Of a DNA stretch of 64,000 bases, positions 184 through 32,795 are shown piece after piece; position 1 is the first letter of the stretch; every line of letters starts with the position of its first letter. Location of the stretch: assembly GCA_036172245.1 (NCBI GenBank), contig JAYWIR010000001.1, positions 8,928,001 to 8,992,000 of the forward strand, read 5' to 3'. Under the pieces are notes generated by a model. It saw only the letters and a program-made list of their open reading frames with translations, was not told the origin of the DNA and searched no databases. A program made the translations under genes and the position numbers. Origin of the DNA: Raillietiella orientalis (lineage: Eukaryota).

Positions 184-1402
184 GAATTGGAAATTAATAT
201 GCAATAGTTCAAGCAGATGGCAAAGGTTTTGTAAACAGGCACCATGGTGTCACTCTGAACTAACACAGAAAAAACATTCGATGCTGCCAAATAAACAGGA
301 ATGTGGTTTTAATTGGAAACAGGTTACAAATTCAGCATTGGTGATTTGTATGATGTTACTGAAAATTTCAGGAATTTGGTCGACGTTATCGTACTTACTT
401 AAATTGGCTACATGGCAATTGTCATGTAACAACATTTGAAGGGCATTCACAAGCCATTTCTTGCATTCAGTATGATAATGCGAGAATTGTAAGTGGTTCA
501 CATGACAAAACCATAAAGGTGCTTTGTTGTTTCATTGTGATTTTTGGTTGTAATTTCCCTGTACATTCAGGTTTGGGACATTCATTCCAATAATCCTTGG
601 TCCGTAATGACACTTGTGGGTCATTCTGGCACAGTAAGATGCTTGCATCTTTTACACAATCGGCTTATCAGTGGCTCATCAGACTGTACAATCAAAGTAT
701 GGGATTTAGATTGTCAAGAACAATGGTCAAGCATTGCTTGTAAAGTTACACTGTTGGGACATCGAAATACTGTACGTTGCCTACAGGCAGATGAAAATCA
801 AGTGATTAGTGGTTCTTATGATCACAGCATCAAAGTATGGTGTATTCAGACAGGAAACTGTCAGTGTACATTAAATGACCATTCAGATGCGGTGTTTTGT
901 ATGCATTTTGTGCAAACTAAGTTGGTAAGTGGCTCAGCAGACTGTACCATAAAGGTAAGCATCATTGTGGCATTAAATTTCTACATTTCTACCTTGAATG
1001 CAGATATGGAACTTTTCTACAGGTACTCATATCAATACTTTGAGAGGTCATGAAAATGCTGTGACTTGTGTTGCATGCGATGATCATCGTATTATATCTG
1101 GTTCTCTGGACTGCACAATCAAATTCTGGGATTGGCAGAAAGGTTATTGCTTGAGTACAATAGATTGGATGAAATCAGAAGGTCATACTGGGGTAATTCG
1201 ATGTTTGCAGGCAGATTGCTGGAGAGTAGTTAGTGCAGCAGATGATAAGACTATAAAAGTGTGGAAACTTGATACAGGAGAAAGAGTAGTTACTTTAAAA
1301 AATCATACAGATGGTGTGACATGTTTGCAGTTTACTGACTATATCATGGTTTCTGGATCCTATGATAAAACTGTCAAGTTATGGGACTTTTCTGTATGTT
1401 AA
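184..1402 (+). CDS. F-box/WD40-repeat protein (FBXW7/beta-TrCP-like architecture), 3' part; exons 184-322, 372-518, 571-954, 1004-1402
   Basis: Spliced frame gives NWKLICNSSSRWQRFC (end of an F-box) then seven GH...SGS.D.TIK.W WD40 repeats and TAA at 1400-1402. Three GT-AG introns of 49, 52 and 49 nt keep the frame. The 5' exons were not identified. Confidence 0.9.
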
Positions 1403-6688: not shown

Positions 6689-7159
6689 ACAGCCTCCCTT
6701 GAAGCGGCAGGATTCGGCATTGCAGTTGTTGCACTGGGAGATCCCATGCAACGCACGAGTCCCCCACTAGACAAGAGGCAGTGTAGCCCCAGACTGTTCC
6801 AGGTGTGGGGAACAGGAAACCTTCCCTCACCTGTTGTTGGAATGTGTTGCGCTCCTGAGTGTCCGGGAACGCTTCGCTGCGACCCTCCCACTCCCGATGG
6901 GCAACGGCAAAAAGGTTTTGCGATGCCTCTTCACGCGCGACTCGACATCGCCTGCGACTTCCCTTGAAGCTCCGTGCTGCCTTCGTGGAGTCGTGGCGGC
7001 GAGAAGCCGCGTCGAAAGAGGCCATCGAACGTTGAGGTCATCCCAATCGTCTGCTCCTCCGTGAGGAAGGCGAGAAGATGGCCACATCTCTGCTAGCAAA
7101 AGAAAGAAGTTGCCGACATTCTCCAGAAGATGCTGAGGACGCCAGGAAGAAATCCGTGA

Positions 7160-7998
7160 TCTCTTACATTTTTTTAAACGAGCAATCACACCTTCCACCG
7201 GCCAATCAGCAGAAACACGAAAACCAACTACATGCTTGCACAATACTTTGTAACCACAAATAATATGCACATTCATCTCAGATTCCTTTAGTTTTCCAAC
7301 CAAGGACAGTACTTCCTATCCGGCATTACCGGATTTACATCACCAGTAGCAGCTTCCTCTTTCTGTACACATGGTCTAACATGTACAGATGCATCCTTAT
7401 TCTTGAATTTGCAAAAAGTACTAGAACGTCTATTCAAATGCTATGTCAAATTTCGCGTTGTAATATGATGATCAAATAGCTCAAAAGAATCAAAGTCTTC
7501 TTCTTCCCGAGGATTGGTTACAATCACATAATCATTATAACTATAATCGCCCCTAACTTGAAAATTCTGTTCATTTTATCAGTAAAAGGCTCAAGTGTAT
7601 AGCGAACACCATACAACTACACATGCTCCAAGTTCCCAGCCATATCACTCAATTTCCAAAAACCAAGGATACTCTTCATAGGAAAACCTTTCGAACAAAA
7701 CATAACACATCACCATCTCATTCCTCTCGAGAAGTTCAAACGCGCATCAACCGAAATAGTTACAGCCCTCGTATAATCATTACAACCAAACGGAATGCGA
7801 GAACCAGCTTTCAAAACAGGACCAATCCATCGCAACTTGTTCCTTCTATAAGCTGACGCCTCAATGTACGCCTGCTACTAATTACATTCCTCCAATTAAC
7901 CAGCAACGTCCACGCACCAACCTCCCACGCCACACCATACGACGATAAGCGCGATAAAGAGCACGTGTAAGCACAGCTAATCACAAAAGATAAACCAT
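7160..7998 (-). pseudogene. cap: Degenerate capsid gene of an endogenous CRESS-DNA virus
   Basis: ATG at 7998, Arg-rich start (RALYRAYRRMVWRGRLVRGR), later VHVRPCVQ...YCPWLEN...MNVH..CGYKV resembling circo/cyclovirus capsid C-terminal motifs. Divergent from rep, with several stops and frameshifts. Confidence 0.6.
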
Positions 7999-8072
7999 AA
8001 GCTGATAAACAAAAGAAGGAACCCCCGAACCCGTGGACTCCGCACAACGAAAGGTCCTTCAAACACACACAC

Positions 8073-8121
8073 GGTGTATGTGTGTGAACAGTGTAAAAAC
8101 CCACACACACACACATACTCC
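8073..8121. other. Candidate viral origin stem-loop between cap and rep
   Basis: GTATGTGTGTG (8076-8086) pairs perfectly with CACACACATAC (8108-8118), extended by GG/CC. The loop contains CAGTGTAAA but no canonical TAGTATTAC. Confidence 0.4.
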
Positions 8122-8124
8122 AAC

Positions 8125-8950
8125 CAGTTTCAATACCCCATACGCAAAGGCAACACAGTGGTGCTTCACTTTAAATAACTACACGACACAGGACGAAGAC
8201 CAACCCCAAAACTGGATGACTAAAAAAACAACATTTGCCATCATATAGGAAAAGAAACAGCAAAAACAGGGATGCTTCATTAACAGGGATGCTTCGAAAG
8301 CAAACAACCACACATCATACCACAACTGGAAAAACAGCACGGGGCTAGAAAGAAGCCATCTCGAATTAGCAAAGGGATCACCAGCATCTAGCAAAGATGA
8401 AACAAGACCAAACACCATGGGAGAGAGAAACACCACCCGGGTGCAAACAAATAACCATACAACAACAGGTAACCCAAATACAATTTACTAATCGCAACCC
8501 TATTCTTAGAGAAAACAACACGTACTACAAGGATAGAACAAAAGATGAATCTGGGGAAAAAAAGCAGAAACACACGAAAAAAACAAAACCTTCATACTCG
8601 ACAAAAGCAAACCGCATAACCAGTTCCATGATATCCCTATAACAATCACTACAATGATGACTACGACTACTACGAATGACAGAAGATAGGCCAAGCAACC
8701 GAGACATCCACTGTACACGGATTACCAAGGAAGCACCCGCAAGACAGCAGTAGTCAACCATATAACCTACGACGGCCTATACCTCAACAACTCAAATACG
8801 GCGATGCAGCCTATCTATATAACGGTGAAAACATAGTCATGGTCGACTTCACAAAGGACAACCGAGACCACATACACCACGGATTCATCGAAACTATCAA
8901 AACCGGAACACTATGCAGACCAAATACCAAGGGCAAGTCAAATTCTTCTT
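8125..8950 (+). pseudogene. rep: Degenerate replication-associated protein (HUH endonuclease + SF3 helicase) of an endogenous CRESS-DNA virus
   Basis: RCR motif I WCFTLNNY (8159-8182); GKETAKTGMLH*QG (motif II HLQG with a stop, 8278-8289); SHLELAKGS...SKD with motif III eroded; Walker A-like YTDYQGSTRKT (~8714-8746); Walker B YNGENIVMVDF (~8818-8850); IETIKTG...KYQGQVKFF; truncated before motif C. Confidence 0.9.
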
Positions 8951-8966
8951 TGTTGTTGTTTTTGGA

Positions 8967-9865
8967 GTCCCTGTCGTTCTGGACTCCTCTGGAGTTGCTC
9001 CATGAAGTCACGGTCCCGCCACGTGGGCAGTGCAGTGCTGCTGGGGATGAGACCGGCGTGAGGGCATCGTGCAGGAACAGGCGCTTCAAAACGTCTCTGG
9101 CGTTGCCGCCGGGAGTTGCAAGGGTCGCGGCAAAGCGCCCCAAAGGGGCTGGAGGCAACACAGTCCACTAGGAGGTGCGGTAGAGATTCCCGCTCCCCGA
9201 ATCTTGCAACAGTTCGGGGAGCGGGACCCTCTCCCCCGTGTCGAATGATGCCGGTGGGCGTTGCACAGGACGTCCCAGTGCAGCAGCATCAACGCCGACC
9301 ATTGCCACTTTAAGGGGAGGGTGCGGGTGTTCATGAGCGCCGGGGGTCGCTGCAGGTCTTCCTCTTGAATACCAGTAGCACGCCCTAGCGAAAAAGTCGG
9401 CACTGGTGGAATCCGGATTCCCCGGTTGACTGGTCTGGATTGGAAGTTTACCCTTCGGGGTCCTTCCAGGAATGAAGGAGCTGGTTCCCCTGTGGTTGTG
9501 GAACAGGAGCCCTTCCCCGAGAAAGCGGGGAGGACCCCTCACCTGGTTACATGGAGTTGGTTGATTCTCCTCCTCGAGAGATTGCCTCTTCAGAGTATCC
9601 AAGAAGCGCGTTGCTCCCTTCAGAAAAGAAACCTGAAGAGTTCCTTAAGGGTTCTCTTCAGAGGAAGAAGCAAGGAGAATTCCCTTCGGAGGAGGAATGA
9701 GGAGCGTCCCTCTTCGGGGGATCACTCCAGAGAGAATCAGGAAGAGGTTCCCCTACCAAGTCCACCTTCCCCCTCCTTCGGATGAAGGAAGACCCCTTCA
9801 TCCGGAGCCTTCCTGGATTTCACAGGGTGGTCCCCTCCCGGCGTACCCCCTAACTTATAGAGTTA
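8967..9865 (-). mobile_element. Composite repeat copy A: L1/Tx1 zf-RVT segment (minus) joined to a plus-strand low-complexity ORF remnant
   Basis: Minus strand LPLKWQWSALMLLHWDVLC...GERESLPHLLVDC (frameshifted); aligns with 31856-32795. Confidence 0.75.
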
Positions 9866-12149: not shown

Positions 12150-12800
12150 AAAAGGACCACGGACGAAAGGTGACGCGATCCGTTCCCGGAGGTCGGATGT
12201 CCCGTAGGCGAGGTCGGACTTCCACGTTGGGAGATCGCGGAGGGCAGTCGAGTAGGGAGCCCCGAACGATGCTTTCGTCCTTTTCGGGAAATGGCCCTTT
12301 GGTTTTCCTAGGATCGTCGAGAGACGATTTCAAACGGGTCGAAGGATTCAACAGTCTACCAATAAGTGCGGGAAGGACTCCCTCTCGCCGCACTTTGTAC
12401 AATGGGCATCGACGCTCCCCCGTGCCCAATGAGAGATGCGTGGTCTGCATGGGATTCCTCAATGCAAGAACAGCAACGCCGTCTCTCGCCACTTCAGGGG
12501 GAAGGTGCCACTGTCCCAACACTCTGGGAACACTTCACCTCCTCCGGAGATTTTGTGAGCAGCTCGCCCCAGAGTACAAGTCCTTTCGGCGGGGTACCCG
12601 AGATAGCAACATCCGCCAGCTGCCGAGTTGTCCACACGCAGTTGTTTCCTGCCTTCGATGCAGCAGGATGTCTTCTATCTTGCCTGTTCATTGCTGTCCC
12701 TCTCATTTTTCAGGGAAGGCAGCACTGGGACAAGAGGGGTGAACGAGACTCACAGCAGTTTGCGTGGGTTGCATACGATCTTCCGCAAGGATTGTCGAGT
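12150..12800 (-). mobile_element. L1/Tx1 ORF2 3' fragment with zf-RVT
   Basis: FPLKWRETALLFLH*GIPCRPRISHWARGSVDAHCTKCGERESFPHLLVDC*ILRPV* at ~12510-12330. Confidence 0.75.
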
Positions 12801-31302: not shown

Positions 31303-31700
31303 GTTCGCGTCGACAGCCGTGTGGCTGCGGCCTCCGCGCGCACGGAAACACCAGGCGTCGCGGGTTCGAATTCCGCCCGGGGGAAAGATCGACTCCCGAG
31401 TAATGGGGGGTGCGGCGTGGGTTTCGAGTCCCCCAGCCCGCAGGATGACGCTGGTTGGCCTATTCGGGTGCGGCATTGGTTGACACCCGGTCATACCGGG
31501 ACCACAGACATGTATGTTTATTTTTTTTTATAAATAAAAATACACGTCTGTGGCAGGACGTTTGATCCTGCCATGTTAATCATAACTACGAGGAGGAACC
31601 TGCCGGGATCTGGCACGCAGGCCAGCGGGATCGCCCCGGCAGCACAGGGGAAAGGGAAACAAACAAAAAGAAAAAAAAGTTAAACATAAATAAATAATAC
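31303..31700 (+). mobile_element. tRNA-derived SINE-like element with structured body and A-rich tail
   Basis: A-box-like CAGCCGTGTGG (~31314), T-arm GCGGG-TTCGAAT-TCCGC (31360-31376), several hairpins, A-rich tail ~31650-31700, and a second head copy at 6605-6688. Confidence 0.6.
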
Positions 31701-31739
31701 AGTCAAAAAATGGGGGGAAGTTCGGGAAGGGATCACTGT

Positions 31740-32795
31740 GTGCTGGAGGGTGTCCTCTGCATCCTTGTAAGGATGCCGGCAAATTCCTGTTTCGAGGCTC
31801 CCAGATGGGGCCGTTTTGACGATATCCTCATGAAGAGGACGGCAAAATAGATGGCGTCCCTGTCGTTCTGAAATCCTCTGGAGTTGCTCCATGCAGTCAC
31901 GGTCCCGCCGCGTGAACAGCGCAGTGCTGCTAGGGATGCGGCCGGCGTGAGGACGTCGTGCAGGAACAGGCGCTTCAAAACGTCTCTGGCGTTGCCGTCG
32001 GGAGTTGCAAGGGTCGCGGCAAAGCGTCCCCAAAGGGGCTGGAGGGCAACACAGTCCACTAGGAGGTGCGGGAGGGATTCCCGCTCCCCGAATCTTGCAG
32101 CAGTTCGGGGAGCGGGACCCTCCCCCCCGTGTCGAATGATGCCGGTGGGCGTTGCACAGGAGGTCCCAGTGCGGCAGCATCAACGCCGACCATTGTCACT
32201 TTAAGGGGAGGTTGCGGGTGTTCATGAGCGCCGGGGGTCGCTGCAGGTCTTCCTCCGAAATACCCAATAGCTCCTCCCAGCGCAAAAAGTCGGCACTGGT
32301 GGAACCCGAATGCTCCGGTTGGCTGGCCTGGATTGGAGGTTGACTCTCCAGGGTCCTTCCAGGAATCAAGGAGCTTCTTTGGGGTTTCCCTCCGGTTTGG
32401 AAGTGGGGCCGTCCAGTAGTTCCTGGATGGTGCTGGTGGTATGATGATGACTCTCCAGAGTGTGAAGAAGCGGCTCCCTTCCGGGAGCGGACCCTTCAGA
32501 GAAACTTGGAAGCGTCCCCTTGGGGTCCTCTTCAGAGGAGGAAACAAAGAGCAGCTAACTCCCTCCAGAGAAGAAAGAAATTCCAGGAGCGGATCCTTTC
32601 GGGATTTCCTTCGGAGAAGAAACAAGTGGCCCCTCCGGGGGAGAATCAGGAAGTGGTGGTTCCCTTCGTAGACAACCAGGGAGAGGGTTCTCTTCAGGGT
32701 TCCCCTATCCAAGCGCAAGAGAGGAACGGATCCCCTCCTCCGGAGCCTTTCCTGTATTCCACAGGGTGGTTCCCTCCAGGGGTACTCCCTATCTT
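31740..32795 (-). mobile_element. Composite repeat copy B (L1/Tx1 zf-RVT segment plus opposite-strand ORF remnant)
   Basis: 31856-32300 is closely similar to 8967-9410; similarity continues more loosely to ~32795; appears to retain ~120 nt more ORF2 C-terminus than copy A. Confidence 0.75.

What the first reader, a model, noticed from the sequence alone, without database searches (positions are those of the whole stretch)
7160..8950. Near genome-length fossil of an ambisense CRESS-DNA virus
Seen: Rep motifs I and II plus Walker A/B on the plus strand, an Arg-rich capsid-like frame on the minus strand, and a short intergenic region with a stem-loop, in ~1.8 kb with a strongly A/C-rich plus strand. 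Known: this divergent layout is that of circo/cyclovirus-like genomes, and many described endogenous CRESS elements are rep-only. Inference: an old germline integration that links a virus lineage to this host. The ORF track hides it because of stops and frameshifts.
Basis: partly seen in the sequence, partly recalled or inferred. Interest (0 to 1): 0.8.

Follow-up and report, generated by a model that had tools for sequence, protein, structure and literature searches.

The report
Degraded CRESS-DNA virus fossil insert
A 1.76-kb piece of a small circular single-stranded DNA virus, with a clearly recognisable but broken replication gene, sits inside the tail of a retrotransposon in a eukaryotic genome; this is a known kind of viral fossil, and the claimed capsid gene could not be confirmed.

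Summary
The core observation holds. Window 7180-8943 is a compositionally distinct insert whose right 800 nt (8147-8940, + strand) is a broken CRESS-DNA virus Rep gene. Both Rep domains are found by homology. The HUH endonuclease domain is hit by a local profile of 27 Reps at E 4e-9 and a profile of 84 Reps at 7e-7. The superfamily-3 helicase is hit at E 3e-9 by tblastn and 3.7e-4 against 1.84 billion proteins. A frameshift-tolerant alignment follows 263 of 316 family positions collinearly, with 5 frame changes, 1-3 in-frame stops and no 3' end.

The helicase is not of the circovirus type. It matches an unclassified CRESS Rep family that includes crucivirus-associated Reps.

Four tests gave no support for the minus-strand capsid. 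The Arg-rich frame and the stem-loop are no better than shuffled sequence, and no canonical nonanucleotide is present. The left 960 nt is tied to the virus only by the same extreme A+C-rich strand bias and by the expected genome layout.

The insert lies in the T-rich 3' tail of a 5'-truncated non-LTR retrotransposon. Age, germline status and the cause of the strand bias remain open.

Verdict: a new member of a known kind, of moderate interest.

The parts
7180..8943 (.). Whole virus-derived insert (1764 nt), defined by strand-biased composition and by the end of homology to retrotransposon copies
   Evidence: Composition bins. GC skew is -0.34 and -0.22 in the two halves, against a range of -0.21 to 0.21 in 1207 windows outside. 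Flank alignments to the copy at 31.6-32.4 kb. Boundaries are good to about +/-6 nt.
8147..8940 (+). Broken Rep gene, family positions 5-267 of 316. It falls in six segments in three frames, with 5 frame changes and 1-3 in-frame stops. The start codon is not identifiable and the 3' end is missing.
   Evidence: Frameshift-tolerant alignment scored 173, against a mean of 40 and a maximum of 49 in 20 shuffles; 73 of 253 codons are identical to the family majority. P0004 aa 10-298 aligns with 79 of 259 identical.
8147..8431 (+). HUH endonuclease domain remnant, with motif I at 8162-8182
8245..8349 (+). Motif II segment, read in a different frame from motif I. It contains an in-frame stop inside the motif (8278-8289).
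   Evidence: Profile domains with i-E 0.18-1.4 in the alternative frame at the right place, and on the path.
8265..8295 (+). Tandem duplication: two exact 14-nt copies spaced 17 nt apart, inside the motif II region
   Evidence: the repeat finder family D4.
8729..8746 (+). Degenerate Walker A remnant. Two of the three family-invariant residues are kept.
   Evidence: It lies at the expected spacing upstream of the aligned helicase segment and on the path segment 8711-8764. No profile reports it alone.
8785..8937 (+). Superfamily-3 helicase segment: Walker B at 8833-8847 and the conserved stretch after it
   Evidence: 24.1 bits, E 7e-7.
8901..8948 (+). Last recognisable Rep residues, in a third frame. 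The gene stops here, about 46 family positions short of its end.
   Evidence: A C-terminal sub-profile gave 4.1 bits, E 0.006, in a search of 3 frames only. This is weak.
8073..8121 (.). Stem-loop between Rep and the putative capsid side. The stem is CA/TG repeats and the loop is 21 nt. A nonamer-like word with 2 mismatches lies on the minus strand at 8101.
   Evidence: (I9). Not better than shuffles.
7180..8060 (-). Putative remainder of the viral genome (capsid side). The coding strand is not established.
   Evidence: The only evidence is shared composition, size, and the layout of relatives. No homology was found.
7906..8001 (-).
   Evidence: 8 R in 32 aa, not above chance.
6690..7179 (+). 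Left flank: 3' fragment of a non-LTR retrotransposon (zinc-knuckle end of ORF2, 3' UTR, start of the T-rich tail)
   Evidence: Alignments A3 and A4. A related copy at 12.5 kb gave Pfam zf-RVT at E 0.006.
8944..8962 (+). T-rich stretch, read as the rest of the left element's tail, split by the insert
   Evidence: Local alignment to the tail of the 31.6-kb copy scored 27. This is low-complexity sequence and the support is weak.
8963..9482 (-). Right flank: a second copy of the same retrotransposon family, inverted and lacking its own 3' end
   Evidence: 91% identical to 31852-32375. Alignments.

Best explanation
Window 7180-8943 is a non-functional endogenous viral element derived from a CRESS-DNA virus (phylum Cressdnaviricota).

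SHOWN.
- Its right 800 nt is a Rep gene with an HUH endonuclease domain and a superfamily-3 helicase domain.
- The gene is collinear with 263 of 316 positions of an unclassified Rep family.
- It is broken by 5 frame changes, 1-3 in-frame stops and a 17-nt tandem duplication, and it is cut off about 46 residues before its end.
- Host repeats flank it on both sides.

INFERRED.
- The left 960 nt is the rest of the same viral molecule, that is, the intergenic region and a capsid gene on the other strand. It shares the same extreme strand bias, and it has the size and position seen in relatives (about 50% likely).
- The viral DNA was captured as a linear piece, broken near the 3' ends of the two genes. 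It entered at a break in the A/T-rich 3' tail of a 5'-truncated non-LTR retrotransposon.
- The element does nothing now.

The A-rich, G- and T-poor plus strand was acquired before or at integration, because it stops exactly at the junctions. Its cause is not settled.
For: REP N-TERMINAL DOMAIN: E 4.1e-9; E 6.8e-7.

HELICASE.
- One search found 5 proteins at E<=0.001 among 1.84 billion. Two of them are full Reps carrying Viral_Rep, and P0004 also passes the RNA_helicase cut-off.
- One search gave tblastn E 3e-9.
- One search gave E 7.1e-7.

COLLINEARITY AND DAMAGE.

SPECIFICITY: of 111 Rep queries, 98 HSPs at E<=1 fall in the insert and 39 in the other 97% of the window. 35 queries reach E<1e-3, all in the insert.

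COMPOSITION.
- Both halves lie outside all 1207 windows elsewhere.
- They lie outside 97 related genomes.
- They lie outside 114 capsid-side ORFs and 95 Rep ORFs of relatives.

FLANKS.
- The right flank is 91% identical to a copy at 31.9 kb.
- The left flank aligns to the 3' UTR of that copy up to about 7176.
- The T-rich 8944-8962 aligns to the tail of that copy.

LAYOUT OF RELATIVES: 58 of 65 are ambisense, median genome 2229 nt, median largest other ORF 265 aa.
Against: - No capsid similarity was found. This covers Pfam on three minus frames, 764 non-Rep ORFs of 118 related genomes (34 of 2274 HSPs fall in the insert, which is background), 22 cluster profiles and 12 cluster majority sequences in a frameshift-tolerant alignment. 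The best of these was reached by 3 of 150 shuffles, before correction for the 12 clusters tried.
- ORF lengths in the left part are not above chance: 82 and 34 of 500 shuffles.
- Motif III is not recognisable.
- There is no nonanucleotide.
- Pfam Viral_Rep stays below its curated cut-off.
- The 'empty site' rests on one diverged paralogous copy and on low-complexity sequence.
- The junctions are supported by the assembly alone.
Confidence: 0.85

Rival explanations
1. This is a Rep-only fossil. Only 8060-8943 is recognisably viral, and the left 880-960 nt is not a capsid gene. It could be viral non-coding or an unknown viral gene, or other DNA that went through the same process and was joined to the Rep piece.
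For: All capsid tests were negative. The Arg-rich frame and the ORF lengths are at chance level. In vertebrates, most fixed circovirus sequences are rep-derived (PMC6372831; only the highlights in the listing were seen).
Against: The left half shares the out-of-range strand bias and the same sharp boundaries. Its length fits an intergenic region plus a capsid of about 265 aa, as in relatives. CRESS capsids diverge fast, and this copy is heavily damaged, so negative searches are weak evidence.
Confidence: 0.35
2. The whole molecule was hit by one-strand base deamination (host editing, or damage to single-stranded DNA) before or during integration. It would then have been dead on arrival, and it need not be old.
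For: - The bias stops at the junctions and covers both genes regardless of coding sense.
- A is above, and G at codon position 1 below, the range of 95 working Rep ORFs. This is not the composition of a functional gene.
- Of 31 differing conserved columns, 7 fit that one change type alone, against 0-3 for each of the other 11 types.
- The first-base test gave 4 against 1 in the reverse direction.
Against: - The numbers are small, and 24 of the 31 differences need other changes.
- The T deficit in the Rep half is not explained by deamination.
- G at codon position 2 is unchanged.
- The affected strand is the complement of the Rep-sense strand. 58 of 65 relatives carry the nonanucleotide on the Rep-sense strand, so that is probably the packaged strand.
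- Some relatives approach this composition naturally, with A up to 40% and G down to 16.6%.
Confidence: 0.3
3. Insertion was mediated by a retrotransposon. A long viral transcript was copied into the genome by the reverse transcriptase of the neighbouring non-LTR elements, rather than viral DNA being captured at a break.
For: The insert lies in the A/T-rich tail of a non-LTR element, a typical target of such enzymes (established knowledge, recalled). Both flanks are A-rich on the minus strand.
Against: There is no poly-A tail at either end of the insert and no target-site duplication. The insert spans two oppositely oriented genes and the intergenic region, which no ordinary viral mRNA covers. 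The flanking retrotransposon sequence does not share the bias.
Confidence: 0.1
4. Assembly chimera or contamination: an exogenous virus sequence wrongly joined to host repeats.
For: No read-level check was possible (one search listed no run). The flanks are repeats, where assemblers make errors.
Against: The Rep gene is far too damaged for a replicating contaminant. Both ends join host repeats within one contig. The two flanks fit the two sides of one retrotransposon tail.
Confidence: 0.03

Closest known systems
[quoted passage not shown]
   Same: Rep-derived sequence with stops and frameshifts, embedded in host repeats. Such elements are reported from many eukaryotes, sometimes with a capsid remnant beside Rep (PMC6186406; passages found with 'endogenous').
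   Different: This copy has an extreme one-strand composition. Its Rep belongs to an unclassified family rather than to cycloviruses or circoviruses. The host was not identified here.
Endogenous circoviral elements (CVe) of vertebrates
   Same: Same kind of fossil, and mostly rep-derived (PMC6372831; only the highlights in the listing were seen).
   Different: The helicase here is not of the circovirus type. The window shows no CpG depletion: observed/expected is 0.67-1.09 in all 4-kb bins. By recalled knowledge, that does not fit a typical vertebrate genome.
Unclassified CRESS Rep family around P0004 and P0005. Named members: a Crucivirus sp. Rep (QKV51285.1), a Cruciviridae sp. Rep, a Pacific flying fox faeces associated circular DNA virus-3 Rep, and an uncultured marine virus Rep.
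   Same: This family gives the best matches for the helicase segment (43-44% identity over 46-48 aa), and the whole Rep is collinear with it (30% identity).
   Different: Identity is only about 30% overall, so no close relative is known. The left part is too short for the large tombusvirus-like capsid of cruciviruses (recalled), and Pfam finds no such coat.
Porcine circovirus 2 Rep (PDB 7LAR/7LAS)
   Same: The nearest solved structure to the family profile, E 3e-35.
   Different: The match covers only profile positions 6-153, the endonuclease and oligomerisation parts. The family's helicase is not in the matched stretch.

Membership tests
Cressdnaviricota Rep (HUH endonuclease + superfamily-3 helicase) | HUH motif I | tested here: met
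   8162-8182, inside profile hits at E 4.1e-9 and 6.8e-7.
Cressdnaviricota Rep (HUH endonuclease + superfamily-3 helicase) | HUH motif II (HxQ) | tested here: met
   A remnant at 8278-8289 in another frame, with a stop inside it. The profile domain in that frame has i-E 0.18.
Cressdnaviricota Rep (HUH endonuclease + superfamily-3 helicase) | Motif III with the catalytic tyrosine (YxxK) | tested here: not met
   Alignments stop just before it. No frame shows it at about 8399-8420 (reading). It is most likely destroyed.
Cressdnaviricota Rep (HUH endonuclease + superfamily-3 helicase) | Walker A | tested here: inconclusive
   A degenerate remnant at 8729-8746 on the collinear path. No profile reports it alone.
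Cressdnaviricota Rep (HUH endonuclease + superfamily-3 helicase) | Walker B and the following conserved stretch | tested here: met
   8785-8937.
Cressdnaviricota Rep (HUH endonuclease + superfamily-3 helicase) | Motif C and the C-terminal end | tested here: not met
   The gene ends at about family position 267-270 of 316. A C-terminal sub-profile finds nothing at either end of the insert beyond 8948.
CRESS-DNA virus genome | Origin stem-loop with a nonanucleotide (NANTATTAC; motif recalled) | tested here: not met
   The stem-loop at 8073-8121 is not better than shuffles. There is no exact nonamer in the insert. The best candidate has 2 mismatches and is on the minus strand. 62 of 65 relatives have the motif.
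CRESS-DNA virus genome | Capsid gene | tested here: not met
   This is weak negative evidence, given capsid divergence and the damage to this copy.
Circoviridae (Circovirus/Cyclovirus) | Circovirus-type Rep helicase | tested here: not met
   A profile of 27 circovirus-like Reps gives no helicase hit at E<=10. The P0004-type profile does.
Circoviridae (Circovirus/Cyclovirus) | Circo_capsid (PF02443) | tested here: not met
   No Pfam family at E<=10 in the three minus frames.
Endogenous viral element (germline) | Host sequence on both sides, and disabling damage | tested here: met
   Retrotransposon copies on both flanks. 5 frame changes and in-frame stops.
Endogenous viral element (germline) | Reads across the junctions; the same insertion in other individuals or species | not testable with these tools
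   No run was listed and no genome is held.

The most novel reading that the evidence does not exclude
The insert is about 80-90% of the genome of an orphan CRESS-DNA lineage. It was hyper-edited on one strand, over its whole length and across both genes, by a host nucleic-acid deaminase or by single-strand damage, just before it was fixed in the genome of a host without CpG depletion. That would be a footprint of editing-type restriction of a single-stranded DNA virus outside vertebrates. It would also be a direct host link for a virus group known only from metagenomes.
Probability: 0.15. Interest if true: 0.6.

Novelty: new member of a known kind. Interest (0 to 1): 0.35.

Why it matters
Endogenous CRESS elements are one of the few ways to tie the many metagenome-only CRESS-DNA viruses to real hosts. 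This one ties an unclassified Rep family, whose named members come from faeces, marine samples and crucivirus-like genomes, to whatever eukaryote this window comes from. The sharply bounded one-strand composition is unusual. If it proves to be editing, it would say something about host defence against single-stranded DNA viruses. Otherwise this is an ordinary viral fossil.

Tried and rejected
- CIRCULAR PERMUTATION. I tested whether the missing Rep C-terminus sits at the left end of the insert. It looked possible by eye, but neither the whole-family profile nor a C-terminal sub-profile at E<=1000 in a 3-frame search finds anything at 7180-7400. Rejected as unsupported.
- SECOND REP COPY IN THE WINDOW. 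Only noise-level profile hits turned up, at about 36.5 and 39 kb (E 3.5-5.9), and tblastn found nothing.
- SEQUENCING RUNS. None was listed for 6700-9400 and no RNA holder was listed, so junctions and expression could not be checked.
- WHOLE GENOME. None is held.
- EARLIER FINDINGS OF THIS SCAN. Nothing by place, by sequence or by words.
- HOST IDENTITY.
  - The retrotransposon ORF piece found no homologue.
  - 19 of the 20 long ORFs scanned elsewhere had no Pfam family at E<=0.01 beyond one weak, sub-threshold STE3 match; the exception was a WD40 exon.
  - The protein-atlas look-up of that exon gave only generic WD40 clusters.
- PFAM ON SINGLE ORF PIECES. No hits.
- P0002. This was the top hit, but it is a repeat protein matched four times by a short stretch. 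It has no Rep domains and is discarded as unrelated.
- TARGET-SITE DUPLICATION OR POLY-A AT THE JUNCTIONS. None was seen.

Full report
WHAT IS THERE

The window is eukaryotic. It holds a U6 snRNA, a WD40 exon and retrotransposon fragments. CpG is not depleted: observed/expected is 0.67-1.09 in every 4-kb bin.

Between about 7180 and 8943 the plus strand is 38% A, 27% C, 15% G and 20% T, while both flanks are balanced. A+C is 62% in the left half and 68% in the right half, against a maximum of 59% in 1207 windows of the same size elsewhere in the window. The GC skew of both halves is more negative than in any of those windows.

THE REP GENE IS REAL

Reading the three plus frames through with X at stops, Pfam gives a single family, Viral_Rep. 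It scores E 0.09 and 13.5 bits, below the cut-off of 26, and covers nearly the whole model.

- A word-indexed search returned one protein, P0001. It is a 281-aa Rep with Viral_Rep and RNA_helicase domains, at E 0.63 for 5.8 billion proteins. By tblastn it hits 8147-8398 at E 2e-6 within the window.
- ORFs of 38 related IMG/VR genomes hit the same place. This accounts for 17 of the 80 best rows, including the 8 best.
- A local profile of 27 such Reps gives E 4.1e-9, with the best hit outside the insert at 0.67.
- Motif I is intact at 8162-8182.
- Motif II is seen in a different frame with a stop inside it, next to a 17-nt tandem duplication.
- Motif III cannot be recognised.

THE HELICASE IS REAL BUT NOT OF THE CIRCOVIRUS TYPE

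The circovirus-like profile finds nothing downstream of 8431. An exhaustive phmmer search of the 89-aa ORF 8680-8946 against 1.84 billion proteins gave 5 hits at E<=0.001.

- Two are full-length Reps: P0004 (355 aa; Viral_Rep 3e-19, RNA_helicase above cut-off) and P0005 (372 aa; named as a Crucivirus sp. Rep).
- Two are helicase-only pieces (P0003, P0006).
- One is an unrelated repeat protein (P0002), which I discard.

By tblastn these proteins hit 8785-8937 at E 3e-9 to 3e-10. P0004 has 300 relatives at E<=1e-5. A profile of 84 full-length ones hits both the N-terminal domain (E 6.8e-7) and the helicase (E 7.1e-7), with the best hit elsewhere in the window at E 2.6.

Of 111 Rep queries, 98 HSPs at E<=1 lie in the insert and 39 in the rest of the window. 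The family profile matches the solved PCV2 Rep only over its endonuclease and oligomerisation parts.

HOW BROKEN IT IS

A frameshift-tolerant alignment of the family majority sequence to 8100-8960 runs collinearly from family position 5 to 267 of 316, over 8147-8940. Its score is 173, against a mean of 40 and a maximum of 49 for 20 shuffles. It crosses 5 frame changes and 1 in-frame stop. With P0004 itself, 79 of 259 codons are identical, with 5 frame changes and 3 stops.

A degenerate Walker A remnant lies on that path at 8729-8746. A weak match in a third frame carries the gene to about 8948. The last 46 or so family positions, including motif C, are absent. They are not at the left end of the insert either.

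THE CAPSID IS NOT SHOWN

- The minus-strand Arg-rich frame (8 R in 32 aa) is matched by 9 R on the plus strand at the same spot. 56 of 500 shuffles reach 9.
- ORF lengths in 7180-8100 are ordinary.
- Pfam finds nothing in the minus frames.
- I fetched 80 more genomes of the P0004-type family and took 764 non-Rep ORFs from all 118 loci. 34 of their 2274 tblastn HSPs fall in the insert, the background share, and none is significant after allowing for 764 queries.
- 22 profiles of recurrent non-Rep ORF families give no hit in the insert at E<=3.
- Twelve cluster majority sequences in the frameshift-tolerant alignment score like shuffles. The best, the largest capsid family, was reached by 3 of 150 shuffles before correction.

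What speaks for a capsid side is indirect. The left half has the same out-of-range composition: G is 13%, below the minimum of 17% over 114 capsid-side ORFs of relatives, and A is 35%, above their maximum of 32%. The boundaries are the same. The length fits relatives, of which 58 of 65 are ambisense, with a median genome of 2229 nt and a median largest other ORF of 265 aa.

THE STEM-LOOP

An 11-13 bp stem with a 21-nt loop lies at 8073-8121, between Rep and the putative capsid start. It is built from CA/TG repeats and is not better than shuffles (z -1.3 and -1.2 on the two strands). No NANTATTAC occurs in the insert, although 62 of 65 relatives have one. The only nonamer-like word inside a long stem has 2 mismatches and lies on the minus strand.

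CONTEXT

- The right flank, 8963-9482, is 91% identical to 31852-32375.
- It is related, in inverted orientation, to the left flank.
- Both flanks end with the zinc-knuckle part of a non-LTR retrotransposon ORF2. A third copy gives Pfam zf-RVT at E 0.006.
- The left copy aligns with the 3' UTR of the 31-kb copy up to about 7176.
- The T-rich 8944-8962 aligns, weakly, with the T-rich tail that follows in that copy.

The simplest reading is that the viral DNA entered the tail of the left element, which already abutted a truncated inverted copy. No target-site duplication or poly-A is visible.

THE STRAND BIAS

Against 97 related genomes, the insert is outside the range for G content, GC skew and AT skew. 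Along the Rep path, A is above the range of 95 working Rep ORFs at all three codon positions, while G at position 1 and T at positions 2 and 3 are below it. So this is not the composition of a functioning gene.

Tests of direction give only modest support for deamination of the minus strand: 7 of 31 differing conserved columns, against 0-3 for each other change type, and 4 against 1 at first codon bases. The T deficit of the Rep half and the polarity problem remain unexplained. The polarity problem is that relatives carry the nonamer on the Rep-sense strand in 58 of 65 genomes.

Because the bias ends at the junctions, it predates or accompanies integration. The damage therefore does not by itself show great age.

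COMPARISON WITH WHAT IS KNOWN

CRESS-like endogenous sequences are well described in many eukaryotes, including cases with a capsid remnant (PMC6186406, passages seen). In vertebrates most are rep-derived (PMC6372831, listing highlights only). Supplementary files were not consulted. This is a further example, from an unclassified Rep family.

VERDICT

This is a new member of a known kind, with interest 0.35.

Noticed in passing
window 50079-50187 (-): Full-length U6 spliceosomal RNA gene, 83.5 bits.
   Followed up: no
window 541-1050 (+): Open frame of 170 aa with three WD40 repeats (PF00400, E 4.8e-21). It is probably an exon of a host gene.
   Followed up: partly
window 6690-7179 (+), 8963-9482 (-), 12150-12510 (-), 31650-32375 (-): At least four 3' fragments of one non-LTR retrotransposon family with a zinc-knuckle ORF2 end. 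Two of them are 91% identical. A 23-nt inverted repeat (9179-9235) recurs in the 32.1-kb copy.
   Followed up: partly
window 20-27 kb, 29-34 kb, 42-47 kb, 51-55 kb: Blocks of 60-73% G+C alternate with blocks of 31-45%. The G+C-rich blocks carry long open frames on both strands with no Pfam family, probably a by-product of composition.
   Followed up: partly
window about 36.5 kb and 39.0-39.9 kb (+): Noise-level matches of the Rep family profile (E 3.5-11) in an A-skewed stretch. They are not supported by tblastn and are probably a composition effect.
   Followed up: partly
P0003 (protein, 354 aa): A protein filed under a Methylococcales metagenome bin consists of two tandem copies of the CRESS helicase domain, without the endonuclease domain, on a 3.9-kb contig. 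It is probably a mis-binned or rearranged CRESS sequence.
   Followed up: no
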